This document shows, piece by piece, positions 18,786-39,457 of a stretch of 64,000 bases of DNA. The stretch covers positions 562,030,001-562,094,000 of the forward strand of contig CM097882.1 of the NCBI GenBank assembly GCA_044892505.1. The letters run 5' to 3'. How positions within the stretch are numbered: the first letter of the stretch is position 1; the number at the start of each line of letters is the position of its first letter. Below the pieces are notes generated by a model. That model did not search any database. It was not told the origin of the DNA and saw only the letters and a program-made list of their open reading frames with translations. The stretch comes from Schmidtea nova (taxonomy: Eukaryota). The position numbers and the translations under genes were made by a program.

Positions 18786-19535
18786 ATGATTAGTGCAGTT
18801 CTAAATGAGAATTATCTGGAATTTGATGAATGGCCTTTTCCCGATTATACAGAATCACCTGAACCTGATGATAATTTTGAAAGTCAATTGATAACGAAAT
18901 TTAAATGTGAAGATTATATCTATCGTAAACAAGCGTTTCAAAAAGCCATGATGTATATTCAGAGCCGACAATATTCAGAAAACAGCAGCAACATTTCATC
19001 AGCATTATTGAATGCTCTAATATCAATTTGCAACGATTCAGAAGTGTCTTTGAGGACGGATTTAGCTAAATTATTGATCACAATTACAAAGATGTGCACC
19101 GCAAAAGCGATAAAAGGAGATTTTGACAGCGAAAACTGTTTCACTGTGCCTGGTGTGATCACATTTATTCATGATGCAAATAAACAACTCAACAACGTTA
19201 TACAAATCCCTGAAGCGCGCTGGTTTTCTTGGTCTCAAATCAATAGCCGAACAAATCACAGAGAGCCTTTCTCTATTCTTTTACGTAGTGTTCATTACAA
19301 ACAACAACCTAATGATAACAAACTCGAGTTGCTCACTTATTGGCAAATAAATGAAACCTTTGGAGGCCTATTGGTTGCTTATTTGGCCTTTCATTTGATG
19401 ATTAACATTGATGCTGTTATGAAGGACAAATTGGTGGCTAGGAATAAAAATTATTATTTGGCCGTTCATTTGATGATTTTCCATGGTAGCAGAGCGTGGT
19501 TCCCATCGGGGACCACGAACTTTTTGGAGCTGTGA
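18786..19535 (+). CDS. Intronless ORF with PP4R1-like N-terminal HEAT repeats, antisense within element D
   Basis: ICNDSEVSLRTDLAKLLITITKMC...VPGVITFIHDANKQL aligns with PPP4R1 LADDSEPTVRAELMEQVPHIALFC...LPIVVRYLADQNNQV, after a similar acidic N-terminus. Similarity ends after about 135 aa. Confidence 0.6.
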   Translation: MISAVLNENYLEFDEWPFPDYTESPEPDDNFESQLITKFKCEDYIYRKQAFQKAMMYIQSRQYSENSSNISSALLNALISICNDSEVSLRTDLAKLLITITKMCTAKAIKGDFDSENCFTVPGVITFIHDANKQLNNVIQIPEARWFSWSQINSRTNHREPFSILLRSVHYKQQPNDNKLELLTYWQINETFGGLLVAYLAFHLMINIDAVMKDKLVARNKNYYLAVHLMIFHGSRAWFPSGTTNFLEL

Positions 19536-19557
19536 CAATACGGTTCTGATTTTATGA

Positions 19558-22500
19558 TTAGGTATAGGGGTATTCCAAGGGAAAAAATAGGGAGCACAAT
19601 GTTTTGCGGCGGGTTCGGCTCCCTAAGGAACCGGAAAAGATGCTGCTATGGACATAGTTCAAGATGATGTACGACTCAAAGGGATTTAGCAAATAATTTA
19701 TTTCTATCTCGTCTGTTATTCCTACATAATATACCCATACTCTGCACGTACAAGTTGAGCATATGTCCATTTTTTCTAATAACAGCACTTTATTGACCGC
19801 ATATGGCGCATTTATTTTCGTTTCATTAATGCTTGTCATGATGCTTAGGATTGTAATTATAAATAAAACTTTATTCATATATCCCAATGGGGTTGGATTC
19901 TTTTGAAACTTTTGTCGAATTTTTGTTTCCTCGTTAATTTTCTTTTCTTTTGAGCGTAATTGATATTCAAAATTCAGGTACTTTTTTACTTCTATTGGCA
20001 TGAACAATGATTGTTTCTGCTCTTTTATTATTAATCGGACGTAATTTTAAATTTGTTGCTGTTGCATCGCAGACCGTATACGGACCTTTAAATGGTCTTT
20101 GTAGTTTAGTTGACAGTCCTTTTACTGGCTCTGGTTTATTTAGGTATACTAGATCGCCAATTTTCATTCCGTGCTCATGCGCTATTTTGTCGTAACTTTC
20201 TTTGTATTGCTTCTGTCGATATTTTATCTTTAATCCTGCTTGAGTCCAAGCGGATTGTAAACGTTCTTGCAGAGCAACTTTATAATTTGGAATCTCTAAA
20301 TATTGAGAAGTTGGTGATTGAAACTCAAAATCGATCGGCATGTTATTTCGTCTTAGGTACATAAGATAAAAGGGCGTTTCTCCCGTACTCTCATTTACTG
20401 AATTTCGATAGGCATATATGCATGGTCTAATAAACAGATCCCGGTCTTTTTGCTTTCGATTCACATAGGATGAGATCATATTAATTAATGTACCATTATA
20501 CCTTTCCACTAAACCATCTGTTTGTGGATGATATGGTGATATGCTTAATTTATATATACCAAATAATTTTGTAATAGATTTAAATAGATCACTCTGAAAG
20601 TTTGTCACTTGATCTGTTAGCAATTTTTTGGAACGCCATATCTAAATATGATTTCTTCAACAAATATTTGTGCAACAGTTTCTGCCTTTTGGTTTGGCAT
20701 AGTAAACGCTTCTGGCCATTTGGTTAAATAATCACAGAATACCAAAATATATTTATTTTCATTCGTTGTCTCGAGTAAAGGCCCGATGATATCCATTGCT
20801 GAAAATTCCATTGGCGCTGCTGGTATTGGCATTGGTTTTAGAGGAACCTTTATTTTCTTTCCAGTATTTCTTCGAGTCAGGCATATTTTACAAGTATTGC
20901 ACCATTGCTTTACATCTTGCTCCATTGTGTTCCAGAAATATTTTAGTTTTAGTTGCGACAGCGTTTTTCTTGCCGACAAATGTCTTCCCAATGCTCCGTC
21001 ATGGTACTGCAATAATAACGTGTTTCGATGTTTTTTTGGAACCACTATTAACAGTTCATCATTTTTAATATATTTTAATATACCTTTGTGAATAATATAT
21101 TTATGTTTTTCCTCGATTAATTGTTTTAATTCATTATCCTTTTTCATTATTACTGTATGGTTTATTATTTGTTTCAGCTCCTCATCCATTTCTTGATCTC
21201 TCTGTAGCTCTGACATATTATTTGCTGCTTTAACTACTGCGAATACAGTATCTTTTAAGTTTATTTCTTCCTGGCTATTATTGATTTTTTCATTTGGAAT
21301 TCTAGACAAGGTATCGGCATTAGCATTTGATTTTCCTGTTCGATATTTGATTTCAAAGTTATATTCTTGCAAGACTAACGATCACCTAATCAATTTGCTT
21401 GCTGCATCTCGATGTTTCATCAACCATTGTAACGGATTATGGTCTGTATAGACAATGAATTTCCGACCTACCAAGTACTGTCGAAATGTTTTTATGCCAT
21501 ATACTAGGGCAAGAGTTTCCTTTTCGATTGTTGAATAGTTTTTCTCATGTGGTTTCATTGATCGACTAGCATATGCGATTACATGATCTTTTTCTCCTTC
21601 AACTTTTTGTCCTAATACCACTCCCAGCGCAAAATCGTTTGCGCCCGTCATTAACATAAATGTCTTTGTGAAATCAGGACATCGTAATATTGGATTCATC
21701 ATTAACTTTTGTTTGAGTATTTCGAAAACATCCTGCGGAGCTTTGTCCCACACGAATTTTGTGGTTTTCTTTAATAGCATCGTTAATGGTTGAGCAACAT
21801 GTGCAAAGTTTCTAATAAATTTTCTGTAATAGCTTGCTAACCCGAGAAATTGTCTAATATCATCAACATTTTTTGGAGTTGGATAATATTTAATTTTCTT
21901 AACATTTTCTGGATTTGGTTGTAAACCTTTTCGTGAAATGATATGTCCAATATACACTACCTCTGATTTTCCCCATTCACATTTTGATGGTTTGATTTTG
22001 AGATTTGCTTCTCTGAGCCGTTTAAATACTGTTTCCACATCTCTCATGTGCTCTTCGAAATTACCTGAGAAGATTATAATATTATCTATATACACCAAGG
22101 CTTGTGGAATATCTCGCAGCATAAAATTCATTCTTCTTTGAAATGTCGCTGGTGCACCTGTTAAACCAAGTGGTAACACATTAAATTCATACAAACCTTT
22201 TCCATCTGAAAACGCTATTTTCCCTTTATCTGTCTCTTTAACTTTGAATTGATTGTAGCCTTTGTTTAAATCAATAACAGTAAAATATTGAGCTTCTCCC
22301 ATTTTGTCAAACATTTACTGAGGAACCGGAATTGGATACGTATCCTTTCTTGTTACTTGATTCAGTTTTCGATAGTCAATACAGAATCTCAGTTCACCGT
22401 CTTTCTTTTTGACTACAACAATAGAGGAAGAAAATGGTGAAAAACTGTCTCTAATAATATGGAATTCTTTCATAGCCTTTATTTGTCTATCGCTTTCGTC

Positions 22501-24467
22501 TTGATGCGCATACGGAATTCTGTATGGCCGTAATTTAATTGGAGTTTAATCAATTAATGGAATTTCATGTTCAATTATATGAGTTACTCCCAAATCATAC
22601 TCATGTTTCGCAAAAATATCTTGATATTTTCTCAACAATTTTGTAAATTTTTGTATTTGCTCTTGCGTCAACTCTGCACTGTCAACTTGGGGTTCTTTGT
22701 ATATTTTAATATTTTTTGGTAATCTTTTATTATCGATTTTTAGAATTCTTGTTAGCTTTCCCGATTTCATTTTTGGTTTTAATGACACTTCTTTGTCGTT
22801 ATTGTTAGTGATGCGAACAGGAATTAATTGATGTTGAACTTTCACTACTTCGTCGTACATTAGAGTATCATATTTGGCAATTAAATTCTCACTTGGTTGA
22901 AATATAAATTCATCGTCTGGAACTCCCATTGTATTCACGTAACAAATGACTTCACTCTGAGGTGGTACTCTTAACGTTTGATTTAGAAATACATCTTTCG
23001 TTTCATGAATAGCTTTTCCCATTTTTCCTACAATTAGATTTCCGGTTTTCAGATAAAGAGAGACTCCTTCCAATTGCTATAACACATCCATCCCTACCAA
23101 ACACATTACTGGGCTATCTTTCATTATTAGCATCATGAACAATTTCTTTATTTCCAATATTAAACTTTACTTTGATCTGTCTAATGATATTTAATTTGTT
23201 TTTCGTCATTGATCGTACAACTTCTTCTGTGCTTTTCATTCGTGCTCCTTCCCCTGAATTTAATAATTTATTTGATAATATTGTATTGCTTGAGCTTGAA
23301 TCTATTAATGTTTCGACCCTATGTTTATTCACTTGTATCCATATTCTTGACTGTCTTCCTTTATTTCCAATTGTCATTAACGCATAATTTCCTGGAAATC
23401 CAAACTTGTTTCTCCTTTCAATTTTCGCACTGGTTGGTGCAATTTGCTCATTTCTCAATTCAATGTTTTCAACTGGTCTCATTTCTTTTAACTTTTCTAC
23501 TGGATATATTGGTGCTGTTGGTAGAAAAGTTTTTGGAATCCATAATCGACTGAACGTGTCTGTTCCACTTGCTTGTGGTATCGATTGCAGTAAATTTAAA
23601 GATTTAGATTTTTCTCGTATATCATTTATTTTAATTTTACTGTTTTTATAATAATATATAGGAGGCACTTTTACTTTCCCTCTATTCCCACTTTCGCTGC
23701 CCAAACTCGTATTAATGTCTTTTCCGTTTTTATTTAATCGTGACTTGACTTTTCCCATTTCTTTATATTGATGCTTTGTAATTACAAATTTTGCCAGAAA
23801 TGGAATACATCCGATAATCAGTTTCCAAGACCATCCCGAAATAACATATAGCTGATGAGTAGTTAATATTTGAAATATTATCACTTTAATCACCACGAAG
23901 ATAACATAAATTCCAATTAATCCTGCACATACTTGTCCCAAAAACATGAATTTTCCCCATATTTTTTTCATCGTATTGTACGTTGCTTTTTTATAATGAT
24001 CTGGTGTCAATTAATAGTCATAATTTACTTTGCTTTCACCACTTGGTAATATAGTATCGATCATTTCAGTAATTACTCGTTCTTTCTTGGATGGGAATAG
24101 TAGATTTCTTCGGGCTTCTTCAACATTTTCTTGAGAATACAATCCAGTTTGCGGTAATTTATCCAGTGATGTAAAATTTATTAAATATTCAAGTTTTGTT
24201 AATTCTAGTTTTTCTGGATTTCTCACTCCTTTATGATCTGGTAATGATATCCACGAATCTGATGTTAGTCGATATAATGGTGCGAACAATCGCTTACAAT
24301 TGCTAATTTTCACTTCCCCTGTTTGAAACCTGTTTGAAAAAGGGCCACATATCGAAAGATTGTAGGAGTAGGGATAATTCCACAGGGGAAAAATCATGTA
24401 CCAAATGCGGGAGAAACAATCATGTGGCGGCAAACTGCAGATTTTCGGACTTGAGTTGTGAGAAATT
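19558..24467 (-). mobile_element. Element D internal region: gB-like env C-terminus, PR, dUTPase-like spacer, RT, RH, IN, signal-peptide domain (decayed)
   Basis: WISLPD and TM segment KIWGKFMFLGQVCAGLIGIYVIF; protease LIDSSSS; RT IDLNKGYNQ and YIDN; RH ETLALVYGIKTFRQYLVGRKFIVYTDHNPL; IN HHCC (YHDGALGRH...CNTCKIC), PYHPQTDGLVER and GPY; then EYQLRS plus hydrophobic VLFIITILSIM. Confidence 0.92.
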
Positions 24468-24802
24468 TTTATATCGAATTTAAAAGTTTTTAATTTAAAT
24501 AAATTAATCTTAAAAATATAATATTCTTTTATTTTTATACAAAAAAATATTTTTTTTAAGAATATATTATAAATATTTTCATATTTATAAACAACAGAAT
24601 GATTGAAAACGAAATCCATGATCCCCAATTGAGCATTTTCAATTGGGGATCATGGATTTCGTTTTCAATCATTCTGTTGTTTATAAATATGAAAATATTT
24701 ATAATATATTCTTAAAAAAAATATTTTTTGTATAAAAATAAAAGAATATTATATTTTTAAGATTAATTTATTTAAATTAAAAACTTTTAAATTCGATATA
24801 AA
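24468..24802. repeat. Near-perfect inverted repeat (165/164 bp arms, 6 nt loop) at the truncation point of element D
   Basis: 24468-24632 is the reverse complement of 24639-24802 except for a one-base homopolymer difference; loop gcattt. Confidence 0.95.
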
Positions 24803-25489
24803 TTTTTTGACTATAATAAATTTTAAAATATATATTTTATTTTAAAAATTAATACTAATTTGTTCGAATAAATCGATTTATGTGATTTATATTTCGATGT
24901 AAGATTGGGTAGCACCTGATGAAGAGAATTAAGTTCTCGAAATATATTGTGCAAAATATATATTTGGATTCTCGTTTGTTGTTAATTTCTAGTTAATTCG
25001 ATTAATCGTTTTTTTTTGTAGCTTGTATTTATTTGTAACAAGAAAATTAAAAATTGCGTATATGGAAGGCAATTGTTTTCCTGCACCTGCACCCAAAAGT
25101 ATTAGGAGTCATTTCTATTTTCCGCGAATTTTATTATTTCTATTTTCCGCGAATTTTATTTAAAGTAGGAAATAGAAATTTATCACAGTAGGCTAGGCAT
25201 AGTAAAAATAAAAGTTCTTTAGTTATTTTGTCATTACATTGCTATTAGCATTTAGTTTTCTTTTAATAAACATTTAAAAGTGGTTGATATAAAAGTGAAT
25301 TATTTTTCGGTATATTAATACTTAAATTTTTAAAAAATATAAAATTATCTAAATAATTGTGCTCGAGAAAAACCTCTAAAAACAACACCAATTTTATCAA
25401 TAATCTCTTATTTTTCAAAACAGGTATACCTTTTACAAAATATAATATATAAAATATTTATATAATAAAAATTAAATTTAGATTAATCT

Positions 25490-27483
25490 ATGGCTGAGAA
25501 GGAAAAAGAAAGCGATTGGATTCAATCCAAAGAAAAGAGAAGTGAAATTTGGACTCATCTATTAATTAACAGCAAAGACAATAATATTTTAAAGTGCAAA
25601 CACTGTGACACTACATTTCGGTTGCATAAAACAACGACGTCATACAGGTATCATATGCAACACAAACATAATTTGTGTAAAGTGGTTGCTTCAACTTCAG
25701 CAGCAAGTCAAAATAATGACGCATCTAAAGTTACTTCGTTTTTTACCAAAAAATCTGCATCATCCCCAGGATACGTACTTGCTAAATTAACTGCATTAGA
25801 TCGCATACCGTTTGCTACTCTGGCAAATAGCGAAGAAATCAAAAATGGATGGAAAGCCCAAGGTTTAAGTTTTCCTGTAACAGAAAAGGGTATCAAGGCT
25901 ATGGTGGTTGATTACGCAGATACGATTCAACAAGCTCTGAAAAACAAACTTAAATTGAAAATCGAAGCTTGGGAACGATTTTCTTTGTCTTTAGATGAGT
26001 GGACTTCAAAACGCAATCGTCGATATATGTGTCTAAATATTCACACCAAAGATAAAGATGTTTTTGGGCTTGGCATGATAAGAATAAAAGAAACCATGCC
26101 AGCAGCCAAAGCAGTTGAAATTGTAAAAAAGAAATTAAGCGAATATGACATTATTTTGAAAAAGCACATAGTGGCATTTGTGACAGATGGCGCCTCTGTA
26201 ATGAAAAAGATGGGTCGTTTGATGTGTATTTACCATCAAGTTTGCCACAGCCACGGAATACATTTGGCAGTTGTAGACGTCCTCTACAAAAAAAATTCAA
26301 CTACGTTTGAAGAAATAGACGAGGAAATCCAATTGGGAAATGAAAACGCTGGAGATCAATCTGATTACGATTCAAATGAAAGTGAAACAGAAAGTGAACT
26401 TCAATTTTGGATGGAAGAAAATCCTTCAGAACACATAAACTGCGCTCTAGCTGATTAATTTTCAACAGTTATTCAAAAAGTAAGAAAAATAGGTCGAATG
26501 TTTCGTAAATCTCCTGTTAAAAATGATGTGCTGCAAAAAGCCTGTAAAAATAAAATTGGTAAGGAATTAAATTTGATAATTGATACCTCCACAAGATGGA
26601 ATTCGCTGCTGGCTATGCTTAAACGGTTCTTGGAAATGAAAGACGTTATAAAAACAGTTTTACATGATTTGTCTGTTGTTCAAATTTTTCCTTCCAATTA
26701 TGAACTAAATGTTATTTCGGATATTGTCGAATCATTGGAAGTAATTGAAGTAAGCTCCTTGGCCCTGGCCAGGAAAGATTGCAACTTAATACAAGCAACA
26801 AAAATCTTTGAATTCTTATTGACAAAATAAAAGAGCAATCCCACTCAAGTGTGCTGGCACAAAAGTTTTGCACGTCAATGACTACCAGAATTAATGAGAG
26901 AAGGAACCCAAATCTTGAAGGATTACTGGTGTATTTGGATGACCCAATAAAATATTTAGAAAGTGTATCGGATGAAAACTTTGTTTTTAAAAAACCAACC
27001 AAAAATGAGCTCGCTAATACCGCTAAAGATTTTGCTAATATTTACTTATACCGCTTACTTATACCGCGGTTACTTATACCGCTTACAGAAAATCCATCCG
27101 AAGCTGATTCTGATTACGAAGATGAAAACGATGTTATAGAAATTGTATCTGAAAAAAGAGCAAAATATTCAAAAGCAGATGAGTTACAGGAATTCTTAAC
27201 TAAAGAACTTGCTAAAACCAATTCAACAGCTGCATTCAACTATAGTTTACAAGATATAAAAAGGGAAATGATGGTTTACGAACACAGTAAAATAAAAACA
27301 GATTTACTATCAAAAATTTATAATGGATTGTTGAGTGTGCGGCCATCATCAGTGGAGGCGGAAAGAAGCTTTAGTGCTGCTGGTTTGTTCGTTACAAAGC
27401 TCCGGACATCCTTGAACGACAATACGTTGGATAAACTCTGCTTCCTACGTGCACATTTATTAAATGAAAAAAATACAAACTAA
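25490..27483 (+). mobile_element. hAT transposase pseudogene (one stop, one frameshift); right TIR at 27701-27710
   Basis: BED finger (W..L...CKHC...YRYHMQHKH), SLSLDEWTS, VTDGASVM, CHSHGIHLAV, TRWNS and the dimerisation motif PSSVEAERSFSAAG. Subterminal aatcgatt repeats end in ccatgcccta. Left TIR not found. Confidence 0.92.
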
Positions 27484-27710
27484 ATATTTTATAATGTATT
27501 ATTTTATTTTTTACCTATATATGTACTGAATTTAATTTGAAGTGAAATAAACTTTTATTTTTGTTAAAATGCAGAAGTTATTTACTTAAAATACATATAA
27601 AAAAATTAATAAATTAATAAATTAATCGATTAATCGATTAATCGACTCAAAAACTGAACAATTAATCGTTAATCATTTTTCTCTAAAATCGATTAATCAA
27701 CCATGCCCTA

Positions 27711-28150
27711 GTTGTCAGGTTGTTGACGACGAATATTTGGTAGATGTAGGATGTTTTCCACAAGAGGAAACTATTGTACTAATACTATTGGTCGAGCTTC
27801 CAGAAGACCAATAGGCAACGCTGAGATTGCCAGATAATGCTGAGTTGGAGAATGACGAAATCTCTCTCGAGCAACAACAAGCAGGTTCTGATACCCGTCA
27901 GCAGACAGGAGAAACCGTAGGTTTAGATGCTGAACTAGACAAATATTTACGGGAATTCGACAACACTGAGGATGAGTTGGTTGAGATAATGCCACCTATG
28001 AAAGATGAAAATATAAGATTAAACCGAAATGAAACGAACATCGGAGCTAGTACTTCGCAGGGAATTGGGCCACCAAGAGATAGGATGAGCCCGAGATTTG
28101 TTGAAAATAGGAGAAAGAAGGAGAGAAGGGGGAGACCAAGAAAGAGTTAA
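27711..28150 (+). pseudogene. ORF X: acidic, then basic segment ending in an AT-hook-like RGRPRK; 5' truncated
   Basis: One reading frame from 27713 with an internal TAG; its TAA (28148-28150) is immediately followed by the in-frame ATG of the Bcl-2-like ORF. Confidence 0.5.
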
Positions 28151-28651
28151 ATGAACCCGCCTCCAAGAGAACTCCTAAGGCCCGTTACTATACAAAGCGT
28201 AAACAGGCAGGTCTTGGCAGGGATAGCCAGCCAAATTGATAAAAGCGCAAGATATTTTAGTAGTAAAACAGAAACGTGGAGGAGATTGAACCAAATATTA
28301 CGACTGATGAAGCTTGAATGGCAAATCACGAAAGAAAAAGTTATAAATGTCGAGAGAATTACCGACAAGATTAAAAAGGCAATGAAAAAGATTCCGGGAG
28401 GCACCACGGAACAAGAACTGTTTGAAGTAGCAGAACAATTTATGCAAGAAGGGTTGACAAAAGGGAAAATGATAACAATTTTAGCCCTAATGTTTAAAAA
28501 CACCTTAATAATACTTAAGGATGATCCGTCAGGAATTCAATTAGCCTTAAACAGGCTGACTAATATTATAGAAGTGAATTTTGAAACATGGATGACTGAA
28601 CACAAGTTTTGGGAGACAAATGAAATGAAACGAAAGGAAAATATGAGATAA
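28151..28651 (+). CDS. Bcl-2-family-like protein (166 aa)
   Basis: LFEVAEQFMQEG-LTKGKMITILALMFKNTLIILKDD-PSGIQLALNRLTNIIEVNFETWMTEHKFW aligns to human BAX 92-158 (FFRVAADMFSDGNFNWGRVVALFYF...P130...W151IQDQGGW158) with two single-residue gaps. G103, G108, P130, W151 and W158 are conserved; BH3-like RRLNQILRLMKLE lies upstream. Confidence 0.7.
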   Translation: MNPPPRELLRPVTIQSVNRQVLAGIASQIDKSARYFSSKTETWRRLNQILRLMKLEWQITKEKVINVERITDKIKKAMKKIPGGTTEQELFEVAEQFMQEGLTKGKMITILALMFKNTLIILKDDPSGIQLALNRLTNIIEVNFETWMTEHKFWETNEMKRKENMR

Positions 28652-28662
28652 ACGAGGATTTA

Positions 28663-30783
28663 TTGACAGAACATATCCCAAGTAATCCACGGGGAATGGG
28701 TGGATTCACTAACTGGATGATGTTATTATTAATGATGGGAATATTGCGACAGGAAAATTCCTTAACAGCATATGATTGCAGCGAACCGATACTAGCAAGA
28801 ATTTATTCATTAGTAGACACAGTGGAATGCAAGGAAGCGTATCCAGATAAAGTTGCTAAACGGGATGATGCTGAATATCATGTTTATCAACAAACAGAGT
28901 TTTATAGGACCAGGGTGAGGGAATGTCGAATACAGAGAGCGACATTTGAGTATTACTGTGGAACAAACAGTTATACAGCATTTCTGGGAGCTAAGCTTAT
29001 CCCGGTACCATTGATAATCCCACCAGAGGATTGCATAAATGCTTTTCTATCGAAAAAATGTTAAAATAGATGATGAAGTGACAATCACATCAGAGGAAGG
29101 AAAGAAGCTGGGTATAACGATTACCAGGGGAGGACCGATATCAGATGATGGTTCTTGCACCGGGAGAAAGAAATTAAGAGGTTCTAATATTGTAAGTTAT
29201 GTTGTAACTGTCGAGGATTACACAGTAGAATTGATAGAATATGAAGGAACCTTTGAAGTAGCTACGGGGAAGATGATGTCCCATCCTGAATGTAATGTGA
29301 AGTTTGGGTATTGTAAAACCAGTACAGCGGTACTGACGTATCAATCAATGAGAGAATTTTGCGATTTGGGATACCTGAAAAAAGTAGTATTTTCAAGGCT
29401 TGATGGGAAAAGTTTTACATCGCAAGATTCACACCAAAGCGGGTGGGGAGATAAGATCACCCACAAAATGAAAAAAGAGAAAGTGCCTGAGAAAAGCATA
29501 GCAGTAGTATTAGTCGCAAAAGATCCTACAGATGCAATACGATTAGTTAGAAAGAAGCAGATAACAAAATGTGGTGTGCCAATATTCGAGACAAACTATA
29601 AGGGAATATTTTTAGCATACAAATATGTTCCGGCAGCGGAAACATTACATCTGTCAGATATAAAGATAGCGAAATATATCAATAATAAAATTGACTTTTT
29701 GTATCATGATTTACAGCAGCAATTACTAGACGTTTATCAGGAAGTGATCTTGAACGATTGCCGTTTAAACAGGGAAATAATACGGAATAGATTAGCAACA
29801 TCTATCTCAAACCCTGATTTAGTAATGCCAATGTTAACCGAGGAGGGAACGTTTGGTAGAATTTCGGGAGAAGCAATTTATAGTTATCAATGTAAAGAGG
29901 TGGAGGTAAAAATTACCAAATACGACCAATGCACTTAAGAGCTCCCAGTAAAATATAAAGGAAAATTAAGATTCATGATACCAGTATCACATCAGTTGAT
30001 GGGAGAAGATGCAACTCCATTGAAGACAATTTGTAATCCAGCAATGTCACCATTATACAAAATTAACAATATATGGATTTCTTTACCAGATAGAAAACCA
30101 CCTTCTAAACCAGTAGAAGTGTTGCAGGCCACTAAACTAGAAACTAAAATGGAATTTCGACCATTGAATGAGATGTCAAAGAGGGAGTATATACTCAGGA
30201 AGATATTGAAGAAGCTAGGATAGCAATAGTGTTTCCTTAAATCAGAGATCGAGGAGTGACAGAGATAATAACTAGAATTTATCAATCATACGACGGAAAA
30301 CCGTATAACAATTTATTTTTTGGACCAGAAAACTACAAGCAAGCCGCATCAAATGTGATTCGGAGAATCTGGGGAAGATTCACAAGCTTTGGAATTTTCG
30401 TAACAGGATGTTCAGGCATATACGCAATAGTGATGATATTGAAAATAATCATATCGCAATTATTTTCCACATATAGTATCTTCAAGATTGGAGGATGGTC
30501 TTGGAAGTTACTATTGGGAATGTTCCCAGTTTGTGCAGATTTCGCAGCATTTCATCATCATAATAAAGAGATTAAGAAAATGAAAAGACAAAATGTGACG
30601 AAGCACGAAATAATAAAGTATGAATATAGTCATCGAGACGATGACAATTCTGACGAGGGAGGTAACCTAGAGGGCGACAAGACTTCATATAACACCTCAA
30701 CAAAACCAGACAACAAAAAACCGAATTTTCAAAATTTTGAAATTAGTACTTTTCAACAGTACCCTGTTAAAACAAAAAGATGA
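28663..30783 (+). pseudogene. Chuvirus/Monjiviricetes-type class III (gB-like) fusion glycoprotein, several lesions
   Basis: Signal peptide WMMLLLMMGIL, then TAYDC, YSLVDTVEC, Q..F..TRVREC...YYCG, GSCTG, YINNKIDF, DCRLNRE, GEAIYSYQCKEV, C.ELPVKY, WISLP and a C-terminal TM region: the characteristic cysteine and motif series of this glycoprotein family. Confidence 0.88.
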
Positions 30784-33700
30784 AAACAACAGGAATGGCC
30801 TGTGAAATATGTGTCACCATATGAAACTAGGAGAAAGAAGTGGAAGAGGAGATGTTGAGGCGTTTTGATTTTAGGACAAACGCAGGTATGTCAGAACCTC
30901 CTACACATTCAAAGTACCACATGAAATTCGAGACAATGCCACCTTTGGGCACATCGGTATTAGAGACAGTACCAAAATATCCATTTAGCACGTTGGAGCG
31001 GCTAAAGGAAAATTATCAAGATGAAATAAAATCGGAAGATGACAGAGATAGCGAGAATCAACAGAAATTTAGAGACAATATTTGAGGAATCTCAACAGTG
31101 TTTATGGCAAATTCAAGTAAAAATACGCACAAGCCTACAATTAAACTAAAGGTTAATAGACAACGGTTCATGCCATTATCGATTCAGGATCAGATTTACA
31201 CTGATCGAAGCAAATTTATTAAATGAAAAAGAATTACTAGCAATAGTACCGACATTAACTATTGCATCAGGAGCAAATTGACAGCCAATCAATGTTATTG
31301 GGACATTAGATTGTGAACTAAGGTTGTGCGACCAGAAATTTAGATACGATATCAAGGTCACCAGACACTGTATGGCAGAATGTATCGTGGGAATGGATAT
31401 ACTGAAAAAGTTAAAAGACATTATATTTGATTGTGCAACAGGCGAATTGGTAAAAATGACGGGTAGAAAACGGAAAACATATAATGTTGATGTAGTCTTT
31501 CTGGATAGAACAGTAAGAATACCACCAAGAACTGAAACAGTTTGTTTTGTGGCAACACACTAAGAGGTTGAGGAAGATGTTATTTTCGAACCAAGTGAGC
31601 AGTTCATAAATAGATATAAAACACCTATGGTGCAAAATTTGGCAACAGAACGGGGAGGAAGAATCCCAATTAGATTAACGAATCTCGCGAATAAGTCATT
31701 GAGGTTGTACCCAGAGACGAGAGTAGGTAAAGTGATACAACTTTCTATTCCAAGGAAAGTGTCTGAATCAATATTATCGGTGAAAGAGGAGGAACAGGAT
31801 CCTGATATTGAGTATTACGATGTACCTAGTTGTGATAGTAAAACTTTAACTAGAAAAGAGAATATTAGAGTTAATCAATTGTTACGAAAATATGATCAAG
31901 TTTTTGCAAAACACGAATATGACTTAGGGCAAGTTAATATCCTAGAACATGAGATTAAATTAACAGAAAGTAAACCAATAAAGATACGCCCGTATAGAAT
32001 CCCTCAAAGTATACAAAGGTCCGTAGATAAACAAATTAAATTAATGCAAAAGTATAATATAATTAGACCAAGTAAATCTCCATATTCTTCGCCCTTGGTG
32101 GTTGTAGCTAAGAGATATGGTTCAGTTAGGTTATGTAATGACTATAGGAAATTAAATGAACAAACTGTAAGTGATAATCACCCACTACCTTTGTTAGATT
32201 ATATATACGATAAAATGAAAAATTCGAAACTGTTTACTGTGATGGATGCACAGAAAGGATTCTATCAAATAAAAATGATCGAAGACTCAATTCCTATGAC
32301 AGGATTTTCAACTAGTAGTGATCATTTTGAAAATTTAGTAATGCCGTTTGGACTAAAAGGAGCACCTCCAACTTTTCAGAGGGCTATGAATATTATGCCG
32401 ATGGATGCACATCATGCAATGATATATATTGACGACATTATTATCTTCTCGGAAGATTTAGATAAGCACTTAGAACATCTTGAGGATATATTTAAACGGC
32501 TAATTATGGCAAATCTGAAAGTAAAACCAAGTAAATGCAAGTGGGCAGGATCGGAAGTGATTTACGTAGGCCATGTAATATCACACGATTGCGTAAGATC
32601 AGATCCGGCTAACACGGATAAAGTAAAGAATCTCCCACAACCAGTGAATGTGAAACAAATCAAAGGATTTTTAGGGTTGACGGGATATTATAGGAAATTT
32701 ATTCGGAATTTCTCTGCGATCGATTTTCCTTTAACTACGCTAGAAAAGAAAGGAGTAAAAATTCTTATGGGGAGAGGATCAGCAGCAAGCGTTTGATAAG
32801 TTGAAAGATGCGTTATGCAAACCACCAATTTTACGGTTTCCAGATTTTAAAAGACAATTCATGGTGATGACCGATGCATGCACAAGAGGCATAGGCGCAG
32901 TTTTGGGACAGAAAAACGAAATTGGTGATGAATACGCAGTAGCATACGCAAGTCGTGGGTTAAAGCCACACGAAAAAAGTTACACAGTGATAGAATTAGA
33001 AGCACTGGCGTTAGTATTTGCAGTGGAGAAATTTAGTCATTACCCGTGGGGCAGAAAGGTAATTTTCTAAACCGATCATAGACGATTGCAATGGCTTTTG
33101 AAACATAGAGATGAGGCGTCGAAATTGGTAAGATGGGCATTGAGATTGCAGCCCTATAATATCGAGATCGTTTATCGAAAAGGTAAAGCCAACGGCAATG
33201 CAGATGCATTATCGCTGATTGAACAAGAACCGGAAGCGGAAGATGTAAAAGAAGGAAGACTGGAATGAACAATCTTTATGTTAACGAGAGAAGCAAATAC
33301 GTTGACTGATTTGGTAGAGGCGCAGAAGAGTGATGACGAGATCAACATGATCAGACAAGCCATCGAAGCAAAAGCCATACCAAGCGAATTTCAAAAATAT
33401 TGGTAGAAACATAAAGATAAATTTATCTTGGAAGAAGGGTTAATTAAATATGTGGAGACGAGAGATAATGTAATATTAGTGCCAAAGAAGTATAGAGAGT
33501 CGTTGCTATTACAATATCACGATGGAGCATTGGGAGGACATCTCTCAGCGAGACATACATTGTCTAGATTGAAAACAAAATACTTTTGGCCATATATGAA
33601 AGATGATGTAAAGAAGTGGTGTCAAACGTGTAAAGTATGTGTAACAAGGAGGAATACAGGTAAGAAACCTCATGTACCTCTAAAGCCAATGTCAGTACCA

Positions 33701-34682
33701 TCCTCGCCTATGGAGATGACGGCTATGGATGTACTTGGGCCGTTTAAGGAATCAACGATGGGAAACAAGTTTATATTAGTCTTTTGCGACTACTTAACAA
33801 AGTGACCGGAAGCATTTCCGATTCGAAACCATAAAGCAGATACAATTGCCAGAATATTTGTTGAGCAGATTGTATTTAGGTATGGAGTTCCATCAAAATT
33901 GCTTACCGACAGAAGAAAGGATTTCATGAGCAATTTGTTAAAAAGCATAAATTATTTTGGTATATTAAAGTTAAACACATCTCGTATCACCCACAAACGG
34001 ATGGGTTGGTAGAGGTTCAATGGAACCTTGGCAAATATGTTGTCATCATATGTGAACTCAGGACAGATGGATTGGGATGTGCATATACCGTCATGTTTGT
34101 TCGCATATAGGAATGCAATTCATTCAGTCACAGGAGAAACGACTTTTATCTAATGTACCTAAGGCATAGCAAGATGCCAGTAGATCTCATATTTTATCCG
34201 AAAGCTTCGCAAAACTGTGACGAAGGGAATTATTTATTTGAAATGAGAGAAAGAATGCAAGAAGCTTGGGAAAAGCAGGCTTAAAAATTCGTTATAACCA
34301 GGAGACAATGAAAGAATACCATGACCGTAAAGCAAAAGAGCATGGATTCTTAGTGGGAGATTATGTCATGTTAGAGGGACATTATAACAAAAAAGATTTG
34401 TAACCGAAACTTATGAGGAATTACAAAGGACCATATCAAATATTGAAGGCTACAGAGACAAATTTGATCTTGCAGTCGGTGGCAAACAAGAAAGCAGAAC
34501 CAATCATGGTTCACGCAAATAGATGCAAAAAGATAGCTCCACCGGAGAAAGAGAAACCGAAATCAGAAATAGACGAATTCGAAATAAATAAGCAATCGAA
34601 AAAGAAAACTTTGGAATCATATAAAAGTATCCTAAAGGGTCAACCAGAACGATACCCTTTACGATCTAGACAGATTCCTAAA
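30781..34682 (+). pseudogene. pol of element E (PR, dUTPase-like spacer, RT, RNase H, integrase), many stops/frameshifts
   Basis: AIIDSGSD at about 31172; RT SPYSSPLVVV, CNDYRKLN, YIDD; RH TDACTRGIGAVL; IN YHDGALGGH...CQTCKVC, MDVLGP, GPY. Confidence 0.92.
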
Positions 34683-35117
34683 ACGGTTACATTTTTAACA
34701 ATAATCAGCTGCGTCATGATGGTAGGTCAAGCATTCGAGAAGTTTGTACCAGAGTCGAGTCAACATCCAGATATATGATATCGACGAACTGATAGGGCTT
34801 TTAGATTCTATTTAAAGAGTATAAAATGGCAAAGATACGATTTATATCTGACAACACCTGAGAAAGGAATATCTTTCCATTTAAACAAATGGGATAGAGT
34901 GAAAGAGATAGGAGGACTAATGCCAAACACCGGATATCTCTTGGAAATCAAGACCTTTTTTGCGGATCCAGACGTTTCTGCAGACGGAGGAAATTGTGAT
35001 GACAAAGCGGGATGGATTTTGAAAACAGCAGTATTTACGGAAAAAGTAGAGATTTCTTATCATGGGCAGACGGTAAAATTCGCGCATGAGTATTGGATGA
35101 AAAATAATAGAATCACG

Positions 35118-35198
<81 letters not shown>

Positions 35199-35688
35199 AA
35201 ATATGAAGAGTCAAAAGATTGGTACTCAAACAATCATATCAAGGTCGAAAATGGACAATACGACCAAAAGTGGTTACGAAAGCCAATATAACATACTTGG
35301 AGTTTTCAGAGAAAATTGGTTGGTATACAGTACATCATGAATTGGTAGATCTGGTACCACATGCAATGGAGAAACTAACTAGCATGCAAGGGAGAGCTAG
35401 ATTAGTAAATATTCCTGGGTGTAAAGGAATAAGCCAAATGGATTTGAGGAACCTAAGAAAGGTAGTGAGTAAAATGCAACCCCTTGTAAATAAACTTCTA
35501 ACCAATTGTACCTGTCAAAGAGAAACTAGGGGATGTTACAAGATAAAATGCCAAATTGGCTATTTGTAGTTATAATAAGGGGAGTAACCAGTATGGTTTT
35601 AGTATTAGTAATAGTAACCCTTTGGATGTTTCAATTAACTTTAAGGGACAAACGTTATTGGGAAAATTATTACGAGACTGAGGTATAG
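34683..35688 (+). pseudogene. Second membrane glycoprotein (GP2) fused downstream of integrase
   Basis: RYPLRSR followed in frame by signal-like TVTFLTIISCVMMVGQA (34683-34733), a ~280 aa Cys-containing domain interrupted by (TA)n at about 35121-35193, and TM WLFVVIIRGVTSMVLVLVIVTLWMF with a short tail ending TAG at 35686-35688. Confidence 0.6.
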
Positions 35689-35890: not shown

Positions 35891-36382
35891 ATGAATTCTA
35901 CCGAAGAATCAAGAGTTCCGACAAAATCAAACAGACAACACCCTATGATTACGTACAATTCCCAAAATAGAAGTAATATAGAAGTATACAGCACATACAA
36001 AGAGGAGTATGTTTACAGGTTCATAGGAACCACGGTGGCGACGAAGATGAATTACTGGTATTATCCAAGGAGGGTGGATATCCCAAATTATTATAAATTC
36101 CCAGGCGGAACTCGAAGGCAAATGATGGTGACGGTTGTGAACAACCAAGGTAGAATTAAAGTAGCAGAGTTATGCAGAGAATATGGCTCATGCCCTAAGT
36201 TAGAAAATATATGGCTTCATGCGATCAACAGACAGATTACTGTATTTATGGCTGGAATGGAACTACCAGTGGAATTAGATAAGCATTGCACATTGGAGGT
36301 GTATCATGCTGATGGTAGAGAACGTAACATAATGTTGCAAGCATCCGCAGTAAATACTATAACCTTACCCAATTGTGAGTAG
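35891..36382 (+). CDS. Cargo ORF (163 aa), possibly a very degenerate DEDDh exonuclease-fold copy
   Basis: MMVTVVNNQGRI, WLHAINRQ and LEVYHA echo the DEDDh motifs CSLVN..G, HGIT and LVGHN; weak similarity. Confidence 0.35.
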   Translation: MNSTEESRVPTKSNRQHPMITYNSQNRSNIEVYSTYKEEYVYRFIGTTVATKMNYWYYPRRVDIPNYYKFPGGTRRQMMVTVVNNQGRIKVAELCREYGSCPKLENIWLHAINRQITVFMAGMELPVELDKHCTLEVYHADGRERNIMLQASAVNTITLPNCE

Positions 36383-37913
36383 AAATGAGCCGACATGGAT
36401 TTATAATGTTAATGAAGAGGATTTACAACAAAGCAGATCATTCGTAGGGAGAAATATGTCGAAAGTGGAAGAAGATGAGGCCACAGTTTTTGTGTCGGCC
36501 GGATTTGCAAAATCGAGAATTGATATGAAGGAAACGCTTATCCAGATAGCGATCTTGGACATAAGAGGGAATAATTTATTGAGTGCAGTAGTGACCCCCA
36601 AAGATCCAGTTAAACACTACCAGACGCACCAATATAAGTTGAAGGAACAGGAAATCCGAGGAAACCTCGATGAGGAGGATTGTCACCATTTGATACGGAA
36701 AATCTGTGACAAGAAAATTGTGGTAGGAATTCTAGTAAAGGATTTACTCAAGGTAGCCAATCTAGCAGTGCAGAGATTATTAGGCATCCGTGATTTATCC
36801 ACGAATAAATTGTTAGAATCCCGAGGAGTCCCTAAGATTCATGGCTATTATAAATTAGGATTCCTGACGAAGACATTTTTGCGTACAGTGCCGGGAGAAC
36901 CAAGGAATTTGGTGTTTACAAATGAGGCATTAGCAATTCGTGCTATATATTTACACATCAGAAATGAATGGTTAGACCATATCAGTGTACCTCAGGAAGA
37001 ATTTAGGTCAAAAACTACGGCAGAGATAGTTGAACAAGAAGTTTTACAGACGCGGAAGTTACCCAAACCGCCATCTACATCGGAACAACCCCATACAAAA
37101 AGAAGGGAGAAGACACCAGAATATTTCCCACCACCCCCAATCATATCGATAGGCGAAGATGAATATGAGACATGCATCAGTGAAGCAGAACCACAACAAC
37201 CATTTACCAGCGCTGCCTATCAGCAAAAGGAAGAATCAGAAATTACGCCCGGTAAAAACAAACAGGAAACAGGCAATGTGGCAAGAATTCTTAAAAAGAT
37301 AATACCGGTAAAAAAAGATAAATCCAAGATGAAGCTGAAGAAGGTTGCTAAACAACCAATAGATCGAATAAAAGAATCGCCACAAAAAGAAAGAGAGGAA
37401 AAGATTACTACTAAGAAAGTTTTTGCCGAAATTGATGATGATATAATGGAAGTCGAGTTTCAACCGCCAATTAAGGAGTTGCAAGAAGCAATAAGGGTTA
37501 AGTCTGAACCCGAAGTTCGGAAAAAGATGTTGAAAATCGCAAAAGAGAATATTATAAAGAAACCAGTATCTGTAGATGTAGATGGATTTGAACCAATGTG
37601 GTATAAACGCCCCGATCCTCTATGGAAACCTAGAGCCAAAGATTACGACTGCCAACCGGTTACAAGAATGGTTATAAACAACAATGAAAAATATGATGTC
37701 TATGACGTGGACGGAATACCGTATGTAGTATCATCGCTTATATTAACAAGCGCGTTAGATGACAAAGCAATGGCAGTAAGCTTTGAGTTAGATACCCTGA
37801 AGAAGAGAAAGCAAGTATTGAAAAGGCAGTACGCAATCGCTAACGGTTATAGCACAACAGAAGTACATCTGTACAAGATTCCCGAGCCAGATCCCGATGA
37901 CCTGGATGCCTAA
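36375..37913 (+). CDS. ISG20/REXO4-like DEDDh exonuclease-fold protein with degenerate catalytic residues, Pro/charged linker and unknown C-terminal domain (512 codons, uninterrupted)
   Basis: IAILDIRGNNLLSAVVTPKDPVKHYQT, KKIVVG, IRDLSTNKLL, KLGFLTKTFL and EALAIRAIY parallel ISG20 CSLVNVHGAVLYDKFIRPEGEITDYRT, GKLVVG, IYDTSTDRLL, SLRVLSERLL and DARATMELY. The ExoI DxE is replaced by S-A. Confidence 0.7.
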   Translation: MSRNEPTWIYNVNEEDLQQSRSFVGRNMSKVEEDEATVFVSAGFAKSRIDMKETLIQIAILDIRGNNLLSAVVTPKDPVKHYQTHQYKLKEQEIRGNLDEEDCHHLIRKICDKKIVVGILVKDLLKVANLAVQRLLGIRDLSTNKLLESRGVPKIHGYYKLGFLTKTFLRTVPGEPRNLVFTNEALAIRAIYLHIRNEWLDHISVPQEEFRSKTTAEIVEQEVLQTRKLPKPPSTSEQPHTKRREKTPEYFPPPPIISIGEDEYETCISEAEPQQPFTSAAYQQKEESEITPGKNKQETGNVARILKKIIPVKKDKSKMKLKKVAKQPIDRIKESPQKEREEKITTKKVFAEIDDDIMEVEFQPPIKELQEAIRVKSEPEVRKKMLKIAKENIIKKPVSVDVDGFEPMWYKRPDPLWKPRAKDYDCQPVTRMVINNNEKYDVYDVDGIPYVVSSLILTSALDDKAMAVSFELDTLKKRKQVLKRQYAIANGYSTTEVHLYKIPEPDPDDLDA

Positions 37914-38195
37914 TCAATGCAAGTTGCTTATCAACAACGTCGCAAAGCAAATAGTGTATATACAGAAGACTTGATTTTTTTGTGACTCATATGACCCTGA
38001 ATTTGACTTTTAACAGATCTTTTGACATTTACTTTAATCATGTGATGTATAAATATAAAAAGTGACATCAGATTTGTGATAGTTCTTTTTACGCTGTGTA
38101 TATTTTAAATTTTTATGTTTTATGTTAATGCTGTTTGTGAAAAGCCTGGTTGTTTAATCTTGTTTTCGAGACGAAAATCTTTTAGGGGTAAGACT

Positions 38196-39155
38196 TGTTA
38201 GGATCAGGCCCTTGGCCTTAATGTATTTAGCTTTTAAAACAAATTATATTTAAAAATAGTAATAGTAAATTACTAAAAATAGTTAATAAAAAAATAAAAA
38301 TTACCAAAAATAATTAATCTAGAAAAAACAATTACCAAAAATAGAATCGAGTTATCTTTTGTAATTGCTAGTAAATTAAATAGTAATTTCTAGTTATTAA
38401 ATATAGTTTAGGTAATTTAATTCACATATAAATAGGACAGAGTTTTAGTTGAGAGGGACGATAATACTTTAGACAACGACAGAATTGACGAAAAGTTTTA
38501 ATTATAACAGAATAGTGGACGATAATAAGAAGAAATTAGATTTACAAGAAATCAATCATTTGGAGAAAGGAAAATCGAATTTATAAAGAAGCATAGATTG
38601 CCATTATAAATTATTACTGGAGCTGGAAAATTGTCGGTAAGAAGAAAATTCAATTATTTCGAGAAATTTTGCATTGAGTTGACGACAGGGAGATTTATAT
38701 AAATACTTCGATCACATTTTCTGGAGATATATTTTTCAGCTTTGGTAAGGAAAACGGTGAAGTATTAATTGTTTTGCGAAATTATCATTAGTTTAAATTT
38801 TGAAATTAGTGAAGGATAAATTTATCCTTTTAGTCTTAACATATTTTTTTAAATTAACAAGCGGGTACAAAGTAAAGTAGCTTACTTTAGTATCCTCTGG
38901 GTGCCTCAAAATCATACCCTCTTGCTTGCCCATCTTTGTTAAAACTCTTAGCGATCGTTGTGCTACACAGGAGCCAACGATTTCTTGCAGGCTGACACAA
39001 ACAGCAAGGATTAATTCAATCCATAATCTTGATTGTTCTTTTTGTACAAACATTTGATTGATAAAATACCATTGTAAATTGTTTAATAAAAGTATTTAAA
39101 GAGCAAAGTTTGTTTTCGTTTACAAATTACCTACTAAATAATATACGCAACCACA

Positions 39156-39161
<6 letters not shown>
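38196..39161 (+). mobile_element. 3' LTR of element E (~965 bp)
   Basis: TTCGAGACGAA...tttaggggtaagact (PPT), then TGTTAGG; AATAAA at about 39086; ends ...cactaa(t)a running into a (TA)n tract. Confidence 0.75.
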
Positions 39162-39218
<57 letters not shown>

Positions 39219-39457
39219 TTTATATACATTTATTTTTTTTTTTCATTGGTCAACTTGTGTTAAGATCAGTAACCCCCATCTTTTTGATCTTAACATTTAT
39301 ACAATACTTTGCTCGCCTTTTTGATAACTTCATCTCATTTTTCCATATTTAAATAATCGTATGTCCCAATTTCTAACAAAATATAACTCGTAATTGTCAC
39401 TTTATTTCGCCGGATATATCACAATTACTTTTTCAATAATCTCCTCACCAACGTTTG

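What the first reader, a model, noticed from the sequence alone, without database searches (positions are those of the whole stretch)
27711..35688. Gypsy retroelement that appears to encode one polyprotein: X - Bcl-2 - gB-like Env - PR - RT - RH - IN - second glycoprotein
Seen: the class III fusion glycoprotein lies upstream of pol. ORF X runs into the Bcl-2-like ORF across a single in-frame TAA. The env frame is open from 28624, overlapping the Bcl-2 C-terminus. IN runs in frame into a second signal peptide. Established: LTR elements normally carry env downstream of pol and package Pol as Gag-Pol; chuvirus-type glycoprotein capture is known in insect BEL/Pao elements and env captures in nematode elements, in the downstream position as I recall. 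Inference: the ancestral element made one membrane-spanning polyprotein with consistent topology (signal, lumenal gB, TM, cytosolic Pol, signal, lumenal GP2, TM), so Pol would be tethered to the budding membrane by Env. I know of no description of this layout. Gag is not visible because the 5' end is truncated.
Basis: partly seen in the sequence, partly recalled or inferred. Interest (0 to 1): 0.92.

Follow-up and report, generated by a model that had tools for sequence, protein, structure and literature searches.

The report
Retrotransposon polyprotein with two surface proteins
This is a broken copy of a recently multiplied, likely flatworm retrotransposon whose unbroken sister copies encode capsid, a Bcl-2-like domain, a viral fusion protein, the copying enzymes and a predicted fibronectin-type second membrane protein in one reading frame; the order up to the enzymes is already published, while the second membrane protein was not found in print and would likely help particles attach to cells.

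Summary
The window copy is decayed and 5'-deleted. The novelty claim largely fails: gag-BCL2-env-pol in one frame is described for planarian Burro elements (PMC6431247) and GAG-ENV-POL gB errantiviruses for flatworms (PMC13524379; nearest Smed_errantivirus_4). Not found in print: the post-integrase membrane protein, present in seven lineages examined (eroded in one), FN3-like by three weak but concordant tests, under purifying selection (dN/dS 0.18); and insertion at AAT/AT microsatellites (14 of 22 versus 3.4% background). The scan noted the FN3 protein before in another genome (e1-9041064). Inferred mechanism: a membrane-threaded polyprotein tethers Gag and Pol to the budding membrane. No particle or RNA evidence.

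The parts
24320..24466 (+). Remnant of gag (zinc-knuckle region) of the same element, cut off from the rest by later insertions and a deletion
   Evidence: 91% DNA identity to L001:4334-4478, tblastn to polyprotein aa 241-285
24463..27709 (.). Secondary insertions that replace about 1.85 kb of the element: a palindromic MITE-like piece (24463-24807) and a hAT transposon remnant (transposase 25487-27483); not part of the element
   Evidence: inverted repeats I8, I9; zf-BED and Dimer_Tnp_hAT; element resumes at 27711
27711..27812 (+). End of the second ubiquitin-like domain
   Evidence: maps to polyprotein aa 904 onward; weak Pfam ubiquitin hits in family C (E 0.009) and P0008 (E 0.018); none in family A itself
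27815..28147 (+). 'ORF X': acidic linker ending in a basic RGRPRK stretch; part of the polyprotein in unbroken copies
   Evidence: no Pfam hit; dN/dS 0.20 between two sister copies
28151..28636 (+). Bcl-2-like helical domain
   Evidence: profile of 5 sequences: after 4 designed repeat proteins the 56 other listed PDB hits are Bcl-2 family, E 0.01-0.06; Pfam Bcl-2 E 0.0018 in family D; low-confidence model (pLDDT 50) matches only Bcl-2 family, E 0.08 or weaker; dN/dS 0.08
28702..28761 (+). Internal signal sequence 1 of Env; predicted to stay behind as the tail anchor of the Bcl-2-like domain
   Evidence: hydrophobic stretch before the conserved (L/M/I)xx(Y/F)DC start in 6 of 6 lineages; 20-62 aa after the BH2-like Trp; cleavage inferred by eye
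28762..30350 (+). gB/chuvirus-type (class III) fusion protein ectodomain
   Evidence: PF24664 E 6e-80 in a sister copy; 14 Cys in 6 of 6 lineages; dN/dS 0.02; not folded here
30388..30462 (+). Env transmembrane helix, followed by a cytoplasmic tail to about 31085
   Evidence: one strong hydrophobic segment; the second (GWSWK) stretch scores +4.6 to +9.4 against -0.5 to +3.1 on a recalled insertion scale
31086..31440 (+). Protease-cleavage-like motif and aspartic protease
   Evidence: gag-asp_proteas E 0.005 in family A, RVP E 4e-12 in family B; motif positions
31564..33210 (+). Inter-domain region (dUTPase-like by position in PMC6431247, untested here), reverse transcriptase (YIDD at 32425) and RNase H
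   Evidence: RVT_1 E 1e-28, RT_RNaseH_2 E 2e-34; RT 96% identical to young sisters
33407..34680 (+). Integrase (HHCC, core, GPY/F-type C-terminus, RYPLRSR end)
   Evidence: Integrase_H2C2 E 1e-20; rve, MLVIN_C in sister copy; positions
34683..34733 (+). Internal signal sequence 2, in frame with integrase
   Evidence: hydrophobic stretch 70-107 aa after GPY in 6 of 6 compact lineages
34734..35556 (+). Second ectodomain (GP2), predicted tandem FN3-like beta domains; interrupted here by an (AT)n run at about 35120-35206
   Evidence: weak model, FN3 hits E 1e-4; Tie2 FN3 E 5e-4; dN/dS 0.18; no relatives in 1.84 billion proteins
35557..35688 (+). GP2 transmembrane helix, short tail and stop of the polyprotein
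   Evidence: KD window 3.0 in sister copy; dN/dS 0.02
35891..37913 (+).
   Evidence: RNase_T E 1.3e-5 in family C; alignment; acceptor-like sites
38180..39295 (+). Polypurine tract and 3' LTR (TG...CA, 38196-39295)
   Evidence: same termini as sister copies
15708..24301 (-). Related family C element into whose env the finding's element inserted; its other part resumes at 39297
   Evidence: 95% identity to L009/L010; L009 6572 maps to 24301 and L009 5121 to 39297

Best explanation
The stretch is a decayed, 5'-deleted copy of a ~15.4-kb Ty3/gypsy LTR element whose unbroken sister copies encode one ~3550-aa polyprotein (Gag, two ubiquitin-like domains, Bcl-2-like domain, gB-type Env, PR, RT, RH, IN, second membrane protein) that is predicted to be threaded through a membrane four times. 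SHOWN: single frame, domain order, LTRs, TSD, tRNA-Trp primer site, recent copying, purifying selection on every module including GP2. INFERRED: signal 1 sends gB into the lumen and, once cut, would remain as the tail anchor of the Gag-UBL-Bcl-2 half; the gB TM returns the chain to the cytosol, so PR-RT-RH-IN would hang on Env's tail; signal 2 sends an FN3-like ectodomain out and its TM ends the chain. Gag starts almost directly with the capsid domain, so this covalent tether would replace a matrix domain and bring Gag, Env, Pol and GP2 together 1:1:1:1 at one membrane; the element's protease would then free CA-NC, PR, RT-RH and IN. gB would be the fusogen, GP2 most likely an attachment protein, the Bcl-2-like domain an apoptosis brake, ORF2 a spliced accessory pseudo-nuclease.
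For: Open frames of 3500 aa or more in 33 of 82 family A matches; about 3450 aa in 17 of 41 family B rows; 3232 aa in 17 of 150 rows (family C); 3401 aa in 20 of 125 rows (family D); same architecture in two outside proteins P0007 and P0008. Domain order by Pfam. Hydrophobic segments in the order signal, TM, signal, TM. A PR-site-like motif falls at cytosolic domain borders: after NC, before PR, between RH and IN (family A 4 of 4 hits cytosolic). GP2: FN3 by Foldseek, profile search, Atlas; a giant relative has IN - ankyrins - signal - four FN3-like repeats - TM. dN/dS 0.02-0.20. LTR pairs without substitution in 14 of 18.
Against: No RNA, protein or particle data. Topology rests on hydropathy windows, not on a trained predictor; a second hydrophobic stretch after the gB TM could change it. 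Family A and P0007 gB have 0 sequons, and GP2 sequons exceed shuffles only in D (P 0.045) and P0007 (P<0.001), not in A, B, C, P0008. The young family C copy read (L010) has a shortened GP2 without a strong TM, yet 17 rows share its 3232-aa frame, so GP2 is not needed for copying there. The GP2 model has pLDDT 41 and TM-scores of 0.2-0.33; GP2 of A/B does not align significantly with C, D, P0007, P0008. The PR motif was drawn from these same sites, hits once inside the gB ectodomain of P0007 and not at all in P0008. No clear PR site separates IN from signal 2. dN/dS rests on one pair of copies.
Confidence: 0.7

Rival explanations
1. Same polyprotein, but GP2 (and Bcl-2-like, UBL, ORF2) are host-manipulating cargo: an FN3 receptor decoy or adhesion molecule left on the host cell surface, not a particle attachment protein.
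For: FN3 hits include cytokine and signalling receptors (IFNAR1, IL-20RB, Tie2, CD45); GP2 diverges far faster than gB (26% A-B identity, against about 56% for gB); eroded in a successful family C lineage; Burro elements carry much apoptosis/ubiquitin cargo (PMC6431247).
Against: Fixed position and topology in seven lineages, made 1:1 with the fusogen at the same membrane; fast divergence also fits a receptor-binding protein.
Confidence: 0.35
2. The element copies itself inside the cell; the single frame is real but Gag and Gag-Pol are mostly made from spliced or processed RNAs, and the membrane passage serves only as an assembly site on the ER, with no extracellular particle.
For: Splice-acceptor-like sites before ORF2 show that these elements likely splice; 1:1 Gag:Pol is unusual for gypsy elements (established knowledge); few sequons on gB.
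Against: gB ectodomain is the most constrained module measured with changes (1 non-synonymous vs 13 synonymous) and keeps 14 Cys in 6 of 6 lineages, which a vestigial envelope would not.
Confidence: 0.2
3. The layout is an artefact of nesting or of decay in this window (env belongs to another insertion).
For: The window is a nest of family A in family C with a MITE and a hAT inside.
Against: Dozens of dispersed copies hold the whole frame between identical LTRs with TSDs.
Confidence: 0.01

Closest known systems
Platyhelminthes GAG-ENV-POL HSV/gB-type errantiviruses, nearest Smed_errantivirus_4 (Chary and Hayashi, PMC13524379; seen: abstract, section 5 part 1 of 2, section 14 whole, passages, rows of two supplementary tables; figures not seen)
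   Same: Ty3/gypsy pol, gB-type env between gag and pol, about 15 kb, multicopy; family A env is about 62% identical (157 of 252, counted by hand) to Smed_errantivirus_4; family D resembles Smed_errantivirus_1 by eye.
   Different: The text has 0 occurrences of 'polyprotein', 'fused', 'in-frame', 'fibronectin'; Bcl-2, UBL, GP2 and ORF2 are not mentioned in what was read; tRNA type is listed 'none' for all six Smed elements, whereas a tRNA-Trp site is shown here.
Burro / GYPSM1 giant gypsy elements of planarians (Arkhipova and Yushenova, PMC6431247 section 7 read whole; Grohme 2018 not held; Jurka 2007 not seen)
   Same: One ORF: gag with CCHC knuckles, Ubi/SUMO-like, BCL2-like, env related to mononegavirus fusion glycoproteins in frame, PR, dUTPase-like, RT, RH, IN.
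   Different: Burro is over 30 kb with a 4873-5140 aa ORF1 and MATH/TRAF, BIR, ankyrin cargo; this element is 15.4 kb, 3550 aa, without them; RT only 40% identical to a giant element of this genome. No signal peptide, TM or fibronectin domain after IN is described, although a giant element here has one.
Bdelloid rotifer Juno/Vesta LTR elements with DEDDy exonuclease ORF3 (PMC5408684, passages)
   Same: Extra 3' ORF with a DEDD exonuclease fold.
   Different: Here an RNase T/DEDDh-type domain, catalytically eroded in families A and B, and present besides an env.
Alphavirus/flavivirus membrane-threaded polyproteins and foamy virus Env leader peptide (recalled, no call)
   Same: Internal signal sequences that become anchors of the upstream protein; Env-dependent membrane targeting of a capsid.
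   Different: Analogy of mechanism only; no homology tested or claimed.

Membership tests
Ty3/gypsy (Metaviridae) LTR element | pol order PR-RT-RH-IN | tested here: met
   Pfam order in window and sister copy
Ty3/gypsy (Metaviridae) LTR element | TG...CA LTRs, short TSD, tRNA primer site, PPT | tested here: met
   18 of 20 LTR pairs parsed, 914-1147 bp; 4-bp TSD in 20 of 22, 7 of them in non-repetitive flanks; 18-nt match to tRNA-Trp 3' end
Ty3/gypsy (Metaviridae) LTR element | gag with capsid and CCHC nucleocapsid | tested here: met
   zf-CCHC E 3e-11; Retrotrans_gag E 7e-8 in family D, E 0.18 in family A
GAG-ENV-POL HSV/gB errantiviruses (PMC13524379) | gB/chuvirus-type env between gag and pol | tested here: met
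   PF24664 E 6e-80 at aa 1474-1853 of P0001's ORF, between zinc knuckles and protease; 62% to Smed_errantivirus_4 env by hand count
GAG-ENV-POL HSV/gB errantiviruses (PMC13524379) | five-domain class III trimeric fold | not tested
GAG-ENV-POL HSV/gB errantiviruses (PMC13524379) | placement in the published POL clade | not testable with these tools
   published POL sequences could not be entered; own RT tree of 10 rows resolves only A+B and C+D
Burro / GYPSM1 | gag-UBL-BCL2-env-pol in one ORF | tested here: met
   (UBL and Bcl-2 hits are weak in family A)
Burro / GYPSM1 | giant size (over 25-30 kb, ORF1 near 5000 aa) | tested here: not met
   15.4 kb between LTR ends, ORF 3549 aa
Burro / GYPSM1 | MATH/TRAF, BIR, ankyrin cargo | tested here: not met
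   no such Pfam hit in families A or B; ankyrins found only in the giant element
Bcl-2 family | helical bundle with BH1/BH2 motifs | tested here: inconclusive
   all natural hits are Bcl-2 family but below curated cut-offs; BH2-like WxxExGGW intact in C and D, altered in A and B
Bcl-2 family | binds BH3 partners / blocks apoptosis | not testable with these tools
   needs an assay
Fibronectin type III (GP2) | seven-strand sandwich with L-x-P-x-T-x-Y-type motif (motif recalled) | tested here: inconclusive
   concordant weak hits; no Pfam fn3 hit; model pLDDT 41
DEDDh exonuclease (ORF2) | catalytic D-x-E, D, H, D residues | tested here: not met
   absent in window, A and B; present in C and D

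The most novel reading that the evidence does not exclude
These flatworm elements are enveloped, cell-to-cell infectious retroviruses built on a plan unlike any described retrovirus: one membrane-threaded polyprotein in which Env's signal peptide doubles as the anchor of a matrix-less Gag and of a Bcl-2 domain, Pol is packaged on Env's tail, and entry uses two proteins, a class III fusogen plus a captured FN3 receptor-like attachment protein fused behind integrase across the whole Burro-related clade; family A also aims its integration at AAT microsatellites.
Probability: 0.3. Interest if true: 0.82.

Novelty: new variant of a known kind. Interest (0 to 1): 0.5.

Why it matters
The env-in-the-middle polyprotein has been on record since 2019 without a model of how it could work. 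The alternating signal/TM pattern, conserved in six compact lineages, gives a testable answer: covalent membrane tethering of Gag and Pol in place of a matrix domain and a Gag-Pol frameshift. The overlooked FN3-like protein behind integrase, also present in a giant relative, suggests either a two-protein entry system or a receptor decoy. Because many copies are very young (identical LTRs), natural particles and processing products should be findable in a tractable regenerating animal, which bears on whether invertebrate gB-type retroelements are truly infectious. The window copy itself is a dead fragment.

Tried and rejected
GP2 relatives: 0 hits in 1.84 billion proteins with the A/B profile, 0 in PDB sequences, Atlas best score 0.80 without family; A vs D GP2 not significant. 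gB against PDB sequences: nothing. Homolog search with env among 1169-3721 aa proteins: 2 of 6804 candidates. VIA-align searches never ran. RT tree: deep nodes open, giant element unplaced. The stretch fetched for one giant element (L056-L058) held no usable pol. Grohme 2018 not held. Cer1/CERV (PMC10309623, passages) considered as a model for ORF2: no homology tested, dropped. PMC8532177 passages and PMC13465017 passages gave context only. Rejected: nesting artefact; X as a separate gene; second TM after gB (scores unfavourable on a recalled scale, not excluded). Two of 20 LTR pairs did not parse (L023/24 lacks the expected 3' end, L025/26 differs at the LTR tail); both are counted in the 22. 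Not-in-print claims rest on searches and text look-ups; figures, most supplements, Grohme 2018, Sacco 2022 and the Burro1 B-IAP paper were not seen and may bear on them.


Full report
OBSERVATION. Pfam places the fusion-protein family PF24664 on four pieces between 28624 and 30780 and RT, RNase H and integrase behind them. X and the Bcl-2-like ORF share frame +2 across one TAA at 28148; the env frame opens at 28624; the last integrase piece runs into a hydrophobic stretch at 34683. The copy is dead: against a young sister it shows 8.1% mismatch, 14 premature stops and 16 frame-changing indel sites in 27711-35688.

WHAT THE ELEMENT IS. A search of the window's genome with the env piece scored 131 of 2986 candidates. 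Besides the window itself, 82 matches are 89% identical or more (family A); 33 of these 82 lie in one open frame of 3500 aa or more and 42 in 3000 aa or more. 41 rows at 55-56% (family B) include 17 with frames of 3400 aa or more; 7 older rows were set aside. Families C (17 of 150 rows at 3232 aa) and D (20 of 125 rows at 3401 aa) have the same plan. So the single polyprotein is seen in natural copies, without any consensus. In one such copy (L001/L002) the order is capsid-like start, five CCHC-type knuckles, linker, two ubiquitin-like domains, acidic X, Bcl-2-like domain, signal, gB, TM, tail, PR, RT, RH, IN, signal, second ectodomain, TM, followed by a 702-aa ORF2. The unit is 15.4 kb between TG...CA LTRs. 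Of 20 further full-frame copies, 18 LTR pairs parsed; 14 of 18 have no substitution. A 4-bp TSD is seen in 20 of 22 copies, 7 in non-repetitive flanks. The primer site matches the 3' end of a host tRNA-Trp over 18 nt in families A to D. Two proteins from outside this genome, P0007 (3181 aa) and P0008 (3700 aa), repeat the architecture. The host is likely a planarian-type flatworm, inferred from the env similarity below.

THE WINDOW'S ANATOMY. The family A copy spans 24320-39295 and sits inside the env of an opposite-strand family C copy; a deletion took A's 5' LTR and start of gag together with about 1.45 kb of C, and a palindrome and a hAT remnant replace a further 1.85 kb.

MODULE TESTS. Bcl-2-like: Pfam Bcl-2 E 0.0018 in family D, E 0.16 in C, none in A; a five-sequence profile lists 4 designed repeat proteins and then 56 Bcl-2-family chains at E 0.01-0.06; a low-confidence model (pLDDT 50) matches only Bcl-2-family structures at E 0.08 or weaker. 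Likely but not proven. gB: PF24664 E 6e-80, 14 cysteines in 6 of 6 lineages, but 0 sequons in A and P0007 and 1-2 in the others; its class III fold is taken from PMC13524379, not folded here. GP2: a signal-like stretch follows the integrase GPY motif by 70-107 aa in 6 of 6 compact lineages, then 200-320 aa and, in A, B, D, P0007 and P0008, a TM. The ectodomains are orphans and align significantly only A-B and weakly C-D. A weak model of A's GP2 (pLDDT 41) gives 26 Foldseek matches at E 0.001 or better, nearly all tandem FN3. A giant relative in this genome, located through an earlier scan note, carries after integrase ankyrins, signal-like stretches, four repeats and a TM; a profile of these four repeats plus A and B hits Tie2 FN3 at E 5e-4, then tenascin and IL-20RB more weakly, with some unrelated hits, and the Atlas returns FN3 for the ten best hits with a family, at 0.88, a lead only. 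Between two family A copies, dN/dS is 0.18 for GP2, 0.02 for its TM and tail, 0.08 for the Bcl-2-like domain, 0.15 for the UBLs, 0.20 for X and 0.02 for gB (one pair). ORF2 holds an RNase T/DEDDh-type domain, catalytic in C and D, without its acids in A, B and the window, behind a splice-acceptor-like site.

MECHANISM (inferred). Hydropathy gives signal, TM, signal, TM. Signal 1 lies 29-36 aa after the BH2-like tryptophan in A-D (20 and 62 in P0007 and P0008), about the spacing of a Bcl-2 tail anchor (recalled), so after cleavage it would anchor the Gag-UBL-Bcl-2 half. One gB TM returns the chain to the cytosol, leaving Pol on Env's tail; the second hydrophobic stretch there scores poorly as a TM but is the weak point of the model. 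A protease-site-like motif falls after NC, before PR and between RH and IN in family A (4 of 4 hits cytosolic), with one hit inside gB in P0007 and none in P0008 (motif derived from these sites). The precursor would thus gather Gag, Env, Pol and GP2 at one membrane without a matrix domain or frameshift. How IN is freed from signal 2 is open. GP2 as attachment protein is my preferred reading, a decoy or adhesion cargo the main rival; the eroded GP2 of young family C shows it is dispensable for copying in at least one lineage.

COMPARISON WITH PRINT. PMC6431247 section 7 (read whole) describes Burro ORF1 as gag, Ubi/SUMO-like, BCL2, env with hits to mononegavirus fusion glycoproteins, PR, dUTPase-like, RT, RH, IN, and calls it the first env in frame between gag and pol. 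PMC13524379 reports GAG-ENV-POL gB elements in Nematoda, Bryozoa and Platyhelminthes and lists six Schmidtea mediterranea elements; family A env is about 62% identical to number 4 by hand count. So the headline layout is known. The element works like a compact Burro but fails Burro's size and cargo criteria; it fits the GAG-ENV-POL gB errantiviruses. DEDD ORFs in LTR elements are known from rotifers (PMC5408684). The post-integrase FN3-like membrane protein was not found in print, nor microsatellite targeting, within the limits stated under Tried and rejected; the scan itself noted the FN3 protein in another genome, which is not independent support.

VERDICT. Real, correctly read, mostly known. 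New variant of a known kind; interest 0.5. The boldest reading, an enveloped flatworm retrovirus with a membrane-threaded polyprotein and a two-protein entry system, has probability about 0.3 and would deserve about 0.8.

Noticed in passing
termini of 22 family A copies (L001-L004, L013-L052): 14 of 22 copies touch an (AAT)n or (AT)n run, against 3.4% of bases in 15 evenly placed 10-kb stretches (P about 1e-11 with a doubled background). The 2 B, 1 C and 1 D copies read are not in such runs. No paper on this was found.
   Followed up: partly
G000:C3 from 128022754 (L053-L055): 1984 exact matches to the primer tRNA-Trp 3' end, those listed spaced about 282 bp apart on one strand: a very large tandem array of the tRNA that primes all four families.
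   Followed up: partly
L076:403-2361 (-): A giant relative continues after integrase with ankyrin repeats, two signal-like stretches, four FN3-like repeats and a TM.
   Followed up: yes
L010:1057-1794: The young family C copy read has a shortened GP2 without a strong TM, while the older family C copy in the window (about 19750-19950, -) resembles the full family D form.
   Followed up: partly
L002 vs L004, ORF2: Two family A copies nearly identical in pol have ORF2 only 60% identical with saturated synonymous sites, and different LTRs: likely a recombined 3' cassette; the window copy carries the L004 type.
   Followed up: partly
window 28130-28147; L005: RGRPRK, an AT-hook-like motif (recalled), ends linker X in families A and B only; RYPLRSR/YNLRS-type motifs end integrase in several lineages.
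   Followed up: no
L045/L046: One copy's 3' LTR is followed directly by a primer site: a tandem element sharing an LTR.
   Followed up: no
window 50253-52584 (-), 53072-55346 (-), 56327-60365 (+): Two further, unrelated decayed gypsy elements and gag-like ORFs.
   Followed up: no
window 24463-24807 and 25487-27709: A near-perfect palindromic MITE-like insertion and a hAT transposon remnant inside the element's deleted 5' part.
   Followed up: partly
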